Positions 19,082-53,032 of a stretch of 64,000 nt of DNA are shown here, piece by piece (the stretch's first letter is position 1; every line of letters begins with the position of its first letter). The notes below the pieces were generated by a model. It did not search any database. It was given only the letters and a program-made list of their open reading frames with translations, and was not told the origin of the DNA. Made by a program: the position numbers and the translations under genes. This stretch comes from Nitrososphaerales archaeon (GTDB lineage: Archaea > Thermoproteota > Nitrososphaeria > Nitrososphaerales > UBA57): NCBI GenBank assembly GCA_047517285.1, contig JAKZTE010000001.1:27498-91497 (forward strand), given 5' to 3'.

Positions 19082-19271
19082 AAAATTTCAATCCTCTTTT
19101 TCATAAAAACTAACGATAACTTGCCTATTAAAGATAGTAAAATATTATAGTCAAGACTGGAAAATGTACAAAAACGATTATTCGAGGTGAATACAATCAC
19201 TCATTTTCTTCAAATAAATTCATCTTAATACTTTATTTAAGCATTTGTTGTAATAATTAAATAATAATCGG

Positions 19272-19402
19272 GCAGGGGTAGCGAATCTTAACAGAGCGAA
19301 GCCCGGTCAACCGCGGATTAACAAAGCGGAAAGGACTCAAGATCGGCTTGTTGTGATATCCTCTCCTCTAGAGGTTCATGGGTTCAAATCCCATCCCCTG
19401 CA
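19272..19402 (+). tRNA. tRNA-Leu(CAA), 131-nt gene requiring removal of three introns (mature 85 nt)
   Basis: Acceptor GCAGGGG/CCCCTGC, T arm ATGGG-TTCAAAT-CCCAT, long variable arm TCCTCTAGAGGTTC and anticodon loop CTCAAGA. A cloverleaf forms only after excising about 19284..19298, 19317..19331 and 19342..19357. Confidence 0.85.
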
Positions 19403-19447
19403 CTTTCCATCGATACTTTTTTTGGATGGAAAATACTTACAACTATC

Positions 19448-19954
19448 ATGATTATTGAATTTAATGCCAACACCCCAAAAATTCAATCCGGTGTGTTTCT
19501 TGCTAGCAGTGCAGATGTTATTGGCGATGTTGTATTAGCAAATGATGTAAGTGTTTGGTATAACTCTGTAATTCGTGGAGATTTTAATTCTATTATCGTC
19601 GAGGATTCTTCCAATATACAAGATAATAGTATCCTACATGTTGACGCTGATGAACCTCTTAGCATTGGTAAAAATACAACAGTTGGTCATGGATGCATAA
19701 TACACGGATGTACAATTGGAAATTCCTGTTTAATAGGAATGGGATCACTAATCATGAACCGCGTTACAATTGGTTCTAATTGTATAATTGGCGCAGGTAC
19801 TCTAATAACGCAGGATACAAAAATTCCTGATAATAGTGTTGTAGTAGGAAGACCAGGAAAAATTATCAGACAGATTACTCAATCCGATTTGGCATATATT
19901 AATTCTAATGCCAAAGCTTACGTGTCTCTTAAAAACAAATACCTTAATCGTTAA
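19448..19954 (+). CDS. gamma-class carbonic anhydrase family / hexapeptide-repeat (LbH) protein
   Basis: Left-handed beta-helix repeats, VIRGD...I.IG..SNIQDNS.LH and the GHGCIIHG His pattern of the Cam/YrdA family. Confidence 0.8.
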   Translation: MIIEFNANTPKIQSGVFLASSADVIGDVVLANDVSVWYNSVIRGDFNSIIVEDSSNIQDNSILHVDADEPLSIGKNTTVGHGCIIHGCTIGNSCLIGMGSLIMNRVTIGSNCIIGAGTLITQDTKIPDNSVVVGRPGKIIRQITQSDLAYINSNAKAYVSLKNKYLNR

Positions 19955-20409: not shown

Positions 20410-20496
20410 TGGGCCCGGAGGGATTTGAACCCACGACTTTTGGTTATCTTCTATAATCCGAAGACCAACGCCCTATCCGGGCTGGGCTACGGGCCC
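20410..20496 (-). tRNA. tRNA-Arg(UCG) with 12-nt canonical (37/38) intron
   Basis: The reverse complement reads GGGCCCG TA GCCC AGCCCGGATA GGGC G TTGGT CTTCGG[ATTATAGAAGAT]A ACCAA AAGTC GTGGG TTCAAAT CCCTC CGGGCCC A. The CTTC/GAAG helix with flanking 3-nt bulges gives a BHB-like motif. The T stem has one U-U mismatch. The intron lies at 20446..20457. Confidence 0.8.
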
Positions 20497-20581: not shown

Positions 20582-21133
20582 GTGAACGACAAATTGGAAG
20601 AAACAACTGATATTATTCAAGCAATAGAGAGCAGCAAGGGATTTTTGATTAAAGATAACGACTCCCGTCAAGAATTGAAAATTCGTGGTTTCGGCGAAGG
20701 AAAAAAACATGGATTATTATTAAGAGACTATGAAGCTCTTTATTTAATCTATTCTTCCAAACTTGATGTTATCAAGGATAATAAAAAGATAACTTTTAAT
20801 GACGTTCTTCAAACTGCTCTAATACGTGATGAACACGCTTGGACAAAATTCTTAATTTACCAAGATATTAGAACTCGTGGTTATGTAGCTAAAGAAGGCT
20901 TTGGTTTTGGTGCAGATTTTCGTGTTTATGATAAAGGAAATTTTGGTTCAAAAGCTGCAAAATATATTGTCTTTGCTATGAACGAAGGCAATGAAATAAA
21001 TACAAAATCTTTGACCGATTCTGTAAAACAAATTTCTAGAATGGGCAAAGTTCCAATTATTGCAGTTGTTGAAAGACGAGGTGAAGTTATTTATTATCGT
21101 TTATCTAAATCTCATTTTCGTGACTTGCTTTGA
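20582..21133 (+). CDS. endA: tRNA-splicing endonuclease family protein (EndA homolog; catalytic His apparently absent)
   Basis: FLIYQDIRTRGYVAKEGFGFGADFRVY...PIIAVV...EVIYY parallels M. jannaschii EndA as I recall it. The start is GTG. At the His position (about Y+10) the sequence reads KAAKY. Confidence 0.75.
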   Translation: MNDKLEETTDIIQAIESSKGFLIKDNDSRQELKIRGFGEGKKHGLLLRDYEALYLIYSSKLDVIKDNKKITFNDVLQTALIRDEHAWTKFLIYQDIRTRGYVAKEGFGFGADFRVYDKGNFGSKAAKYIVFAMNEGNEINTKSLTDSVKQISRMGKVPIIAVVERRGEVIYYRLSKSHFRDLL

Positions 21134-34472: not shown

Positions 34473-34560
34473 TGGACCGGAAGGGAATTGAACCCTCGAC
34501 CTTCCGAGTTCTTGGTTTTTTACATGCAAGTCGGATATTCTACCGCTGAACTACCGGCCC
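34473..34560 (-). tRNA. tRNA-Ala(UGC) with 16-nt canonical intron
   Basis: The reverse complement reads GGGCCGG TA GTTC AGCGGTA GAAT A TCCGA CTTGCA[TGTAAAAAACCAAGAA]C TCGGA AGGTC GAGGG TTCAATT CCCTT CCGGTCC A. The G3:U70 Ala identity pair is present. The CTTG/CAAG helix with bulges CA|T and AA|C forms a BHB motif. The intron lies at 34509..34524. Confidence 0.88.
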
Positions 34561-52930: not shown

Positions 52931-53032
52931 TGGACCGGAAGGGAATTGAACCCTCGACCTTATGGGATAGTGATCTTTCCGCATGCGAAGCGGATAGTAT
53001 ATCTTTCGATTCTACCGCTGAACTACCGGCCC
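52931..53032 (-). tRNA. tRNA-Ala(CGC) with two non-canonical introns (13 nt after position 25; 17 nt after position 43/44)
   Basis: The reverse complement reads GGGCCGG TA GTTC AGCGGTA GAAT [CGAAAGATATACT] A TCCGC TTCGCAT GCGGA [AAGATCACTATCCCATA] AGGTC GAGGG TTCAATT CCCTT CCGGTCC A. G3:U70 is present. Outside the anticodon arm the exons are identical to tRNA-Ala(UGC) at 34473..34560. Confidence 0.82.

What the first reader, a model, noticed from the sequence alone, without database searches (positions are those of the whole stretch)
19272..19402. tRNA-Leu(CAA) gene interrupted by three short introns
The gene spans 131 nt between a perfect acceptor pair (GCAGGGG / CCCCTGC). No cloverleaf forms on the contiguous sequence. 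Removing three segments gives an 85-nt class II tRNA in which every stem is Watson-Crick:
- AATCTTAACAGAGCG (19284..19298), with the junction ambiguous within the duplicated GCGAA, i.e. positions 9/10 to 14/15
- ATTAACAAAGCGGAA (19317..19331), at position 27/28
- ATCGGCTTGTTGTGAT (19342..19357), at the canonical 37/38 site

The spliced product is GCAGGGG TA GCG AAGCCCGGTCAAC CGC G GAGGA CTCAAGA TCCTC TCCTCTAGAGGTTC ATGGG TTCAAAT CCCAT CCCCTGC A.

For the second intron, a 4-bp helix CCGC/GCGG is flanked by 3-nt bulges (GG|A, AA|A). This places both cleavage sites exactly where the perfect anticodon stem requires them. Three-intron tRNAs are known but rare, and have been reported mainly in Thermoproteales-type archaea.
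Basis: seen in the sequence. Interest (0 to 1): 0.65.

Follow-up and report, generated by a model that had tools for sequence, protein, structure and literature searches.

The report
Three-intron leucine tRNA gene, marine archaeon
This is very probably a working leucine tRNA gene split by three 15-16-base introns in an uncultured marine thaumarchaeon; this gene layout is already known in other archaea, but standard tRNA finders miss this gene.

Summary
The sequence is as described. Removing three segments of 15, 15 and 16 nt from 19272..19402 gives an 85-nt sequence that ARAGORN calls tRNA-Leu(CAA). ARAGORN and Rfam find no tRNA in the uncut DNA.

The window comes from an AT-rich marine thaumarchaeon. 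I recovered 12 distinct versions of the gene from related MAGs and metagenome contigs. All 12 carry all three insertions.
- Exons vary at 5 of 85 columns, with no indels. Two of the five form a compensatory A:U to G:C change in the T stem.
- Introns vary at 20-23 of 51 columns and hold all 9 indel columns.

Relatives fix intron 1 at position 14/15 (19286..19300).
- Intron 2 (27/28) has a textbook bulge-helix-bulge motif.
- Intron 3 (37/38) has one too, but the window's copy carries a U·U mismatch.
- Intron 1 has only a degenerate motif, with 2 of 4 Watson-Crick pairs.

An endonuclease-family gene lies 1.2 kb away. It lacks the catalytic histidine, so it is probably the structural subunit.

A 217-genome survey found three-intron tRNAs only in Thermoproteales and none in Thaumarchaeota. 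Multi-intron tRNAs are now also known in Asgard archaea. This is a new member of a known kind, of moderate interest. Splicing itself has not been shown.

The parts
19272..19402 (+). Whole tRNA-Leu(CAA) gene, 131 nt, from G1 to discriminator A73. CCA is not encoded.
   Evidence: It is conserved in 12 variants.
19272..19285 (+). Exon 1, tRNA positions 1-14: acceptor 5' strand GCAGGGG, U8, A9, D-stem 5' strand GCG, A13, A14.
   Evidence: Invariant in all 12 orthologues. Pattern-retrieved members were required to match this stretch. Junction inferred from L040 and from the GCA variants.
19286..19300 (+). Intron 1, 15 nt, TCTTAACAGAGCGAA, at position 14/15 in the D loop. Its bulge-helix-bulge motif is degenerate: AGCG (19280-19283) against AGCG (19295-19298) gives only G10:C and C11:G. 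There is a 2-bp inner helix, CU/AG.
   Evidence: Length varies from 14 to 16 nt and the sequence varies among orthologues. Motif table.
19301..19316 (+). Exon 2, positions 15-27: D loop GCCCGGUCAA, D-stem 3' strand, G26, G27.
   Evidence: Only one variable column, the D-loop C/U/A. Pattern-retrieved members were required to match the rest of this exon. The joined exon 1 and exon 2 sequence, GUAGCGAAGCCYGGU, is contiguous in another archaeon's tRNA-Leu(CAA), L005.
19317..19331 (+). Intron 2, 15 nt, ATTAACAAAGCGGAA, at 27/28. It has a strict central helix, CCGC (19311-19314) with GCGG (19326-19329). The 3-nt bulges are GG^A and AA^A. The inner helix is 2-3 bp.
   Evidence: Helix and bulges are invariant in 12 of 12. 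The loop varies and has indels. One inner pair covaries, U:A to A:U.
19332..19341 (+). Exon 3, positions 28-37: anticodon stem 5' strand AGGA, C32, U33, anticodon CAA, G37.
   Evidence: Invariant. Pattern-retrieved members were required to match it.
19342..19357 (+). Intron 3, 16 nt, ATCGGCTTGTTGTGAT, at the canonical 37/38 site. The central helix is C32-A35 (19336-19339) with UGUG (19352-19355). It has a U·U mismatch in this window, whereas most relatives have a perfect UGAG. The bulges are AG^A and AU^A. The outer helix is the anticodon stem.
   Evidence: Length varies from 15 to 18 nt among orthologues.
19358..19402 (+). Exon 4, positions 38-73: anticodon stem 3' strand, long variable arm (CCU-CUAG-AGG), T arm AUGGG-UUCAAAU-CCCAU, acceptor 3' strand, A73.
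   Evidence: The T-stem pair 49:65 changes from A:U to G:C in 5 of 12 orthologues.
19231..19241 (+). Conserved TATA-like box CTTTATTTAAG, ending 30 nt before G1. This is the candidate archaeal promoter.
   Evidence: TTTATTTAA is invariant in all 12 orthologues, and the two bases on either side vary in one or two of them, while the rest of the flank is variable. Its function is inferred.
19417..19423 (+). Run of seven T, 15 nt after the gene. This is the candidate archaeal transcription stop.
   Evidence: A T-rich run is present downstream in all orthologues. Its function is inferred.
20582..21133 (+). Gene for a 183-aa protein of the tRNA splicing endonuclease (EndA) family, 1.2 kb downstream. 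It has Ala where the M. jannaschii enzyme has the catalytic His125, so it is probably the structural subunit of a heteromeric enzyme.
   Evidence: Pfam PF01974 at 2.3e-21 and PF02778 at 2e-9. TIGR00324 scores 66.3 bits. Alignments to PDB 1a79 and to orthologues.

Best explanation
The locus is a functional gene for tRNA-Leu(CAA) in an uncultured marine thaumarchaeon (Nitrososphaerota).

Proposed pathway:
1. The gene is transcribed as a precursor of about 131 nt plus short leader and trailer. The likely signals are a conserved TATA-like box upstream and an oligo-T stop downstream.
2. Three mini-introns are removed by the archaeal protein splicing pathway. The splicing endonuclease cuts inside 3-nt bulges that flank a 4-bp helix (the bulge-helix-bulge motif), and an RNA ligase joins the exons.
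3. End trimming and CCA addition complete the 85-nt class II tRNA.

The three introns:
- Intron 1: 15 nt, position 14/15, in the D loop.
- Intron 2: 15 nt, position 27/28, at the D-arm/anticodon-stem junction.
- Intron 3: 16 nt, position 37/38, the canonical site.

Introns 2 and 3 present the expected motif at exactly the required junctions. Intron 1 presents the same layout but with only two Watson-Crick pairs in its central helix. It therefore has to rely on the relaxed-substrate tolerance described for the heterotetrameric (alpha-beta)2 endonucleases of Crenarchaeota.

What is shown: the sequence anatomy, the conservation pattern and the motif geometry. What is inferred: transcription, cleavage, ligation and the order of intron removal.
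For: (1) Removing the three segments gives a sequence that ARAGORN calls tRNA-Leu(caa), with all stems Watson-Crick. U8, A14, G18, G19, A21, U33, the T loop UUCAAAU, A73 and a long variable arm can all be read directly from the sequence.

(2) Alignment to uninterrupted archaeal tRNA-Leu genes places three long gaps on its own. It beats shuffles at z=3.7 and z=5.9. The joined exon 1 and exon 2 sequence, GUAGCGAAGCCUGGU, is contiguous in another archaeon's tRNA-Leu(CAA) (L005).

(3) I found 12 distinct orthologues and all keep the three insertions. Some were found by conserved synteny, in the order hisD-hisG | tRNA | gamma-CA, MsrB, tRNA-Arg, EndA-like, UbiA, RFC. Others came from DNA pattern scans.

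(4) Exons vary at 5 of 85 columns with no indel columns. Introns vary at 20-23 of 51 columns and contain all 9 indel columns. Fisher p = 4e-6 on the synteny-derived set, which was not selected on exon sequence.

(5) The T-stem pair 49:65 changes from A:U to G:C on both sides in 5 orthologues.

(6) Motif table:
- Intron 2 has CCGC/GCGG with bulges GG^A and AA^A in 12 of 12.
- Intron 3 has CUCA/UGAG perfect in 6 of 12, with the anticodon stem as outer helix.
- In both, the variable bases fall in loops and bulges.

(7) Relatives in which the second GCGAA copy is GCAAA (L027, L028, L031) rule out junctions 9/10 to 11/12. In L040 the copy reads GCGCAAC, which leaves only 14/15 if the universally conserved A14 is kept.

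(8) The genome clearly uses this pathway. Three of the four other tRNA genes in the window have introns. tRNA-Ala(CGC) needs two non-canonical introns removed, each with a 3-of-4 central helix. An EndA-family gene lies 1.2 kb away.

(9) The literature says Thaumarchaeota carry the (alpha-beta)2 endonuclease (PMC5829648, PMC4090602). It describes relaxed-motif cleavage for that enzyme type and shows it by experiment for a crenarchaeal enzyme (PMC5829648). tRNAscan-SE 2.0 found 107 non-canonical introns in 11 thaumarchaeal genomes (PMC8450103).
Against: There are no RNA data, so neither the precursor nor the mature tRNA nor any splice junction has been observed.

Intron 1 has no convincing bulge-helix-bulge motif. 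Only G10:C and C11:G pair in its central helix, with three pairs in one relative, and the inner helix is 1-2 bp.

The window's own intron 3 has a U·U mismatch in the central helix, and one subclade has a terminal A·G.

The thermodynamic minimum-energy fold of the precursor is -43.5 kcal/mol. The fold that displays the three motifs is -25.2 kcal/mol. The consensus fold prefers pairing between intron 1 and intron 3.

Covariation is thin. Two pairs show changes on both sides and most pairs never vary.

The only endonuclease-family gene seen lacks the catalytic histidine, and the catalytic subunit is not in the window.

All orthologues come from one clade. No relative lacking an intron was found to mark the junctions directly.

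I could not check the rest of the genome for an intron-less tRNA-Leu(CAA) copy.
Confidence: 0.85

Rival explanations
1. Only introns 2 and 3 are spliced. The first insertion is either retained as an oversized D loop or removed at different boundaries or by a different route from bulge-helix-bulge cleavage.
For: Intron 1 is the only one of the three without a proper motif; its central helix reads x||x. Its junction rests on the assumption that A14 is conserved in L040. The consensus fold pairs its 5' part with the 3' end of intron 3 rather than forming its own motif.
Against: Retention would give a 28-nt D loop, and neither tRNA model accepts the sequence with it in place. The segment varies in length (14-16 nt) and in sequence, as the other two introns do, while the flanking D-arm bases are invariant. 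It has the same 15-nt layout as intron 2: 1 bulge base, 2-bp helix, 4-nt loop, 4-nt strand, 2 bulge bases. After removal the D loop, AAGCCCGGUCAAC, closely matches the 13-nt D loop (AAG-YYUGG-YYAA-N) of tRNA-Leu genes uninterrupted at this site in other archaea (L004, L005, L022). Another tRNA in the window also needs introns removed that have imperfect helices.
Confidence: 0.08
2. The locus is a decaying pseudogene or relic of a tRNA-Leu gene, and the three insertions are damage rather than introns.
For: Standard finders do not recognise it. tRNA-Leu(UAA) could in principle read UUG (general knowledge), so the CAA isoacceptor may be dispensable. The window's intron 3 has acquired a mismatch in its splice helix.
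Against: The exons are nearly invariant across 12 variants, although the neighbouring protein has diverged to 69% identity and the flanks are poorly conserved. A compensatory double change keeps the T stem paired. The upstream TATA-like box is conserved. The helix-forming bases of introns 2 and 3 are conserved while their loops drift. In three MAGs the exact 3' end of the gene occurs once.
Confidence: 0.04
3. The match is a chance resemblance. With free choice of three deletions, many sequences can be trimmed into a cloverleaf.
Against: Shuffled controls almost never reach the observed similarity of the internal region to real tRNA-Leu genes: 0-2 of 2000. The same architecture is conserved in 12 orthologues with an exon/intron contrast in variability. 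The motif helices sit exactly at the required junctions.
Confidence: 0.01

Closest known systems
Three-intron tRNA genes of Thermoproteales (Pyrobaculum, Thermoproteus and others)
   Same: One tRNA gene is interrupted by three short protein-spliced introns: one at 37/38 and two at non-canonical sites. The hosts carry the (alpha-beta)2 splicing endonuclease (PMC4033280, PMC5829648). In the tRNAscan-SE 2.0 survey all 16 three-intron genes were in this order (PMC8450103 Table S7).
   Different: The host here is a mesophilic, AT-rich (33% GC) marine thaumarchaeon, not a hyperthermophilic crenarchaeon. The introns are uniformly tiny, 14-18 nt. I did not test whether the introns spread by transposition, as proposed for Thermoproteales.
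Thaumarchaeal tRNA genes with one or two non-canonical introns (tRNAscan-SE 2.0 set)
   Same: Same phylum and same kind of short non-canonical intron. That survey found 107 non-canonical introns and 39 two-intron genes in 11 genomes, and a clade-specific intron model was needed to detect them (PMC8450103). The window's own tRNA-Ala(CGC) is a two-intron example.
   Different: That survey found no gene with three introns in Thaumarchaeota. This gene has three. I could not run tRNAscan-SE to see whether it detects all three.
Methanopyrus kandleri pre-tRNA-Glu(UUC): a D-loop HBh' intron at 20b/21 plus a canonical intron
   Same: It combines a relaxed-motif intron in the D loop with a canonical 37/38 intron, and processing has been shown by RNA-seq and in vitro (PMC5829648).
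   Different: It has two introns, not three. The D-loop site differs (20b/21 against 14/15). Here the D-loop intron's central helix, not only a bulge, is degenerate.
Multi-intron tRNA genes of Asgard archaea (Atabeyarchaeia, Freyarchaeia)
   Same: They show widespread non-canonical and multiple introns outside Thermoproteales. In that study 92-95% of tRNA genes have introns and over half have several (PMC11291895).
   Different: Different phylum. In the present window only one of five tRNA genes has three introns. I made no sequence comparison.

Membership tests
tRNA (class II, leucine-accepting) | Cloverleaf with a 7-bp acceptor stem, D arm, 5-bp anticodon stem with 7-nt loop, and 5-bp T stem with 7-nt loop. 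| tested here: met
   ARAGORN calls the 85-nt spliced sequence tRNA-Leu(caa). It is not met by the uncut DNA.
tRNA (class II, leucine-accepting) | Match to the Rfam tRNA covariance model RF00005. | tested here: not met
   There is no RF00005 hit at 19272-19402, at the gathering score or at E<=10. This is expected for a gene with three insertions. The tool cannot score an artificially spliced sequence.
tRNA (class II, leucine-accepting) | Universally conserved bases (U8, A14, G18, G19, A21, U33, T loop UUCRANY), plus the long variable arm and A73 typical of tRNA-Leu. | tested here: met
   All are read directly in the spliced sequence. The variable-arm tip YUAGRGG is shared with tRNA-Leu genes of other archaeal phyla. 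Their role as LeuRS identity elements comes from general knowledge and was not tested.
tRNA (class II, leucine-accepting) | Purifying selection and compensatory change in stems across orthologues. | tested here: met
   Exons vary at 5 of 85 columns with no indels. The 49:65 pair changes from A:U to G:C.
tRNA (class II, leucine-accepting) | Expression, aminoacylation with leucine and use in translation. | not testable with these tools
   No RNA or biochemical data were available.
Archaeal bulge-helix-bulge (protein-spliced) introns | A 4-bp helix flanked by two 3-nt bulges on opposite strands, with the cut after the second bulge base and both cuts at the exon junctions (definition in PMC5829648). 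| tested here: met
   This applies to introns 2 and 3. Intron 2 is strict in 12 of 12. Intron 3 is strict in 6 of 12, with one mismatch in the window and in a subclade, and has the anticodon stem as outer helix.
Archaeal bulge-helix-bulge (protein-spliced) introns | The same motif, strict or in a recognised relaxed form (HBh', hBH, BHL), at intron 1. | tested here: inconclusive
   The layout and both 3-nt bulges fit, but the central helix has only 2 Watson-Crick pairs (3 in L040), and the inner helix is 1-2 bp. This is weaker than the relaxed forms named in PMC5829648.
Archaeal bulge-helix-bulge (protein-spliced) introns | Introns evolve faster than exons and absorb the indels. | tested here: met
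   20-23 of 51 intron columns vary and all 9 indel columns lie in introns, against 5 of 85 exon columns. Fisher p = 4e-6.
Archaeal bulge-helix-bulge (protein-spliced) introns | The host encodes a splicing endonuclease able to cut relaxed motifs: an (alpha-beta)2 or epsilon2 type with a specific loop. | tested here: inconclusive
   An EndA-family gene is present at 20582-21133, but it lacks the catalytic His and is probably the structural subunit. No second EndA gene is in the window. The literature assigns the (alpha-beta)2 type to Thaumarchaeota (PMC5829648, PMC4090602).
Archaeal bulge-helix-bulge (protein-spliced) introns | Observed excision and ligation. | not testable with these tools
   No transcript data were available.
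Three-intron archaeal tRNA genes | Three separate introns within one tRNA gene. | tested here: met
   Three separate insertions are needed to restore the cloverleaf, and they are kept in 12 orthologues. This is an inference from sequence.

The most novel reading that the evidence does not exclude
This would be the first three-intron tRNA gene described in Thaumarchaeota (Nitrososphaerota), fixed across a whole marine clade. Its D-loop intron would be cut without a recognisable bulge-helix-bulge helix. In this reading, introns 1 and 2 are related 15-nt mini-introns. They match at 11 of 15 bases, and both end in a copy of the D-stem 5' strand, AGCG(G)AA. Splicing of intron 1 would then depend on an unconventional substrate, such as mimicry of a D-stem strand or an obligatory order of intron removal. 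That would extend the known substrate range of the thaumarchaeal endonuclease and would give a case of intron duplication within one gene.
Probability: 0.2. Interest if true: 0.5.

Novelty: new member of a known kind. Interest (0 to 1): 0.35.

Why it matters
Practical point: ARAGORN and the Rfam tRNA model both miss this gene. The tRNA-Leu(CAA) of this widespread mesopelagic lineage may therefore be absent from automatic annotations. That would bias counts of "missing" tRNAs and estimates of genome completeness.

Biological points:
- It moves the three-intron gene layout outside hyperthermophilic Thermoproteales into a cold-water, AT-rich lineage. A 217-genome survey found at most two introns per tRNA gene in that phylum.
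- It offers a natural substrate, intron 1, with an unusually poor splice motif for testing how far the thaumarchaeal endonuclease tolerates relaxed substrates.

It does not change the general picture of archaeal tRNA splicing.

Tried and rejected
- **More distant orthologues by synteny.** Relatives with 59% identity in the gamma-CA-like protein have eIF-1A upstream instead of the tRNA. HisG relatives at 55-59% identity have no tRNA next to hisG.
- **Metagenome scan allowing 0-30 nt at introns 1 and 2.** It returned only three-intron genes.
- **Other junctions for intron 1** (12/13 and 13/14; 9/10 to 11/12 are excluded by the GCA variants). I worked these through by hand from the sequences; no tool scored them. 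All give poorer helices than 14/15, which one search scored.
- **A cross-intron motif using the D stem as central helix.** Worked out by hand, this would place the 5' sites of introns 1 and 2 in opposite bulges. I rejected it because the helix would be 3 bp, not 4, or one cut would be off by one base.
- **The intron 1 / intron 3 helix proposed by RNAalifold** (AUCUU with GAGAU). It has no covariation and would bury both splice sites in a helix, so I did not adopt it.
- **Thermodynamic folding of the precursor.** It does not favour the motif-displaying fold. I judged this uninformative for a protein-recognised substrate.
- **Hidden tRNA genes in the window.** A T-arm scan found none beyond the five known.
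- **Papers.** Tocchini-Valentini 2011 and Marck & Grosjean 2003 are not held.
- **Chance simulation.** I did not run a full simulation over all triple deletions, because the comparative evidence made it unnecessary.

Full report
**What is in the sequence.** The window is AT-rich, at about 33% GC. ARAGORN finds one tRNA in the whole window, and it is not this one. Rfam finds four tRNAs, none of them here. A permissive Rfam scan of 19150..19550 returns only a T-arm fragment hit. ARAGORN calls this product tRNA-Leu(caa), with a 7-bp acceptor stem, a 3-bp D stem, a 5-bp anticodon stem, a long variable arm and a 5-bp T stem. ARAGORN finds nothing on the uncut DNA, even with its intron option.

**Is it more than chance?** A global alignment with cheap gap extension was made against an intron-less tRNA-Leu(TAG) from another archaeon (L022). 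It places three gaps of 15, 15 and 16 nt on its own. When only the internal region is aligned (positions 8-86 of the gene), the score exceeds shuffled controls. The values are z=3.7 (2 of 2000 shuffles as good) against L022 and z=5.9 (0 of 2000) against a tRNA-Leu(CAA) from L005. The joined exon 1 and exon 2 sequence, GUAGCGAAGCCYGGU, is contiguous in L005.

**Who carries it.** An exact-match scan of one genome per species with the 3' 25-mer found the gene in four thaumarchaeal or Nitrosopumilales MAGs. In one of them (L001) only the 3' end falls within the stored stretch. The same scan found many tRNA-Leu genes of other phyla. The neighbouring genes are hisD and hisG on the minus strand, then a gamma-carbonic-anhydrase-like protein, MsrB, an intron-containing tRNA-Arg, an EndA-family protein, a UbiA prenyltransferase and RFC. 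Homologues of the gamma-CA-like protein at 69-98% identity led to contigs with the same gene order and the tRNA in the same intergenic gap. One homologue is identical to a protein of an uncultured marine thaumarchaeote fosmid. HisG identity drops from 79% to 61% outside this group, so the clade is well separated from other Nitrososphaerota. A metagenome scan allowing 0-30 nt at the first two insertion sites returned eight more loci.

**Comparative evidence.** In all there are 12 distinct gene versions, and every one carries all three insertions.
- Over the aligned gene, exons vary at 5 of 85 columns and have no indel column.
- The three insertions vary at 20-23 of 51 columns and contain all 9 indel columns.
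- Fisher p is 4e-6 on the seven versions found by synteny alone, which were not selected on exon sequence.
- Two of the five variable exon columns are the T-stem pair 49:65, which changes from A:U to G:C on both sides in five versions.
- The other three variable columns lie in the D loop, the variable-arm stem (C:G to U·G, still paired) and the T loop.
- Upstream, TTTATTTAA within the box CTTTATTTAAG (which ends 30 nt before G1) is invariant in an otherwise variable flank. A T-run follows the gene.

This is the pattern expected of an expressed gene under selection for its spliced product. It is not the pattern of a pseudogene.

**Junctions.**
In L027, L028, L031 and others the second copy is GCAAA, so the D stem must use the first GCG. 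In L040 the segment ends in GCGCAAC, so only a junction after A14 keeps the universally conserved A14 and gives the same mature D loop as the others. Intron 1 is therefore 19286..19300 at 14/15.
- Intron 2: it can be drawn at 27/28 or 28/29.
- Intron 3: it can be drawn at 37/38, 38/39 or 39/40.
- For introns 2 and 3, the splice-motif geometry selects 27/28 and 37/38.

**Splice motifs.** I used the standard geometry: a 4-bp helix, each strand followed by a 3-nt bulge that is cut after its second base. The motif definition is in PMC5829648, and the position of the cut comes from general knowledge of archaeal splicing.
- Intron 2 is a textbook case in all 12 versions. It has CCGC/GCGG with bulges GG^A and AA^A, plus a 2-3-bp inner helix with one covarying pair.
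- Intron 3 uses C32-A35 against UGAG, which is perfect in six versions. Its bulges are AG^A and AU^A, and four anticodon-stem pairs form the outer helix. The window and its identical relatives have UGUG, which gives a U·U mismatch. One subclade has GGAG.
- Intron 1 has the same 15-nt layout as intron 2, but its central helix is AGCG against AGCG or AGCA. Only G10:C and C11:G pair there, with three pairs in L040. This is the weak point of the model.

Two observations make excision of intron 1 plausible. First, the window's tRNA-Ala(CGC) becomes a recognisable tRNA only after two non-canonical segments are removed, and their helices pair at 3 of 4 positions. Second, Thaumarchaeota are reported to have the (alpha-beta)2 endonuclease (PMC5829648, PMC4090602), the enzyme type described as cutting relaxed motifs, which has been shown by experiment for a crenarchaeal enzyme (PMC5829648). 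Neither observation proves that intron 1 is excised.

**Folding.** Energy-based folding does not help. The minimum-energy fold of the precursor (-43.5 kcal/mol) and the alignment consensus fold both pair intron 1 with intron 3. The motif-displaying fold scores -25.2 kcal/mol. There is no covariation for the inter-intron helix.

**Enzyme context.** The ORF at 20582..21133 matches both endonuclease Pfam domains and TIGR00324. It aligns best to the M. jannaschii enzyme. At the position of that enzyme's catalytic His125 it has Ala, and orthologues have Ala or Pro. The Tyr and Lys of the catalytic triad are kept. It is therefore probably the non-catalytic partner of a heteromeric enzyme. No second endonuclease gene lies in the window.

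**Comparison with what is known.** Multi-intron tRNA genes are well documented. Reviews place three-intron genes in Thermoproteales (PMC4033280). The tRNAscan-SE 2.0 survey of 217 archaeal genomes found 16 such genes, all in Thermoproteales. In 11 thaumarchaeal genomes it found none, but it did find 39 two-intron genes and 107 non-canonical introns (PMC8450103 Table S7). Since then, Asgard genomes have been reported in which over half of the tRNA genes have multiple introns (PMC11291895). Full-text searches found no paper linking three introns with Thaumarchaeota tRNAs. The gene is therefore a new member of a known kind in a lineage where it had not been recorded. It is not a new mechanism.

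**Verdict.** The remaining doubt lies in how, and whether, intron 1 is cut, and in the complete absence of RNA evidence. Interest is moderate, at 0.35.

Noticed in passing
window 52931-53032 (-): This is a tRNA-Ala(CGC) gene that appears to carry two non-canonical introns and none at 37/38. One is 13 nt, after the D stem at about 24/25. The other is 17 nt, in the variable loop at about 43-45. Removing them gives a 72-nt sequence that ARAGORN calls tRNA-Ala(cgc). Both central helices pair at only 3 of 4 positions. ARAGORN misses the uncut gene, and Rfam scores it at 40 bits. Its exons outside the anticodon arm are identical to those of tRNA-Ala(UGC) at 34473-34560.
   Followed up: partly
window 20582-21133 (+): This EndA-family protein has Ala at the position of the catalytic His125 of the M. 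jannaschii enzyme. The same is true in four orthologues, one of which has Pro. Tyr and Lys of the catalytic triad are kept. It is probably the structural subunit, yet it passes the NCBIfam 'tRNA-intron lyase' cut-off and would be annotated as the enzyme. It is syntenic with two intron-containing tRNA genes.
   Followed up: partly
window 19187-19204, between hisG and the tRNA; also L031, L040, L042, L051, L053 upstream of hisG: A conserved motif, GTGAATACAATCACTCAT (consensus about TGAATGCAATCCCTCA), lies upstream of hisG. It is kept even in distant Nitrososphaerota whose HisG is only about 55% identical, and it occurs twice in L053. It may be a regulator-binding site for the histidine operon.
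   Followed up: no
window 19286-19300 versus 19317-19331: Introns 1 and 2 of the window's gene resemble each other. They match at 11 of 15 bases, sharing TTAACA and AGCG..AA, and only 26 of 20000 composition-preserving shuffles match as well. They also have the same layout. The similarity is weaker in relatives. It could reflect intron duplication or shared constraints.
   Followed up: partly
window 19285-19289 with 19353-19357: RNAalifold on the 12 precursors predicts a helix between the start of intron 1 (AUCUU) and the end of intron 3 (GAGAU). This helix would compete with the splice helix of intron 3. There is no covariation either way.
   Followed up: no
L007, L014, L015, L020 (Bathyarchaeia); L012, L018 (Aenigmatarchaeota): In four Bathyarchaeia, the tRNA-Leu(CAA) gene with the same 3' end carries a conserved insertion of about 19 nt in the D arm (TCCTCATAGAGGGACTATA) and nothing at 37/38. 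The tRNA-Leu genes of the Aenigmatarchaeota look interrupted at several places. Disrupted tRNA-Leu genes seem common in several uncultured phyla.
   Followed up: no
window 20410-20496 (-) and 34473-34560 (-): tRNA-Arg(UCG) and tRNA-Ala(UGC) have canonical introns of 12 and 16 nt, with perfect 4-bp helices (CUUC/GAAG and CUUG/CAAG). ARAGORN in default mode misses both. In total, four of the five tRNA genes in the window contain introns.
   Followed up: partly
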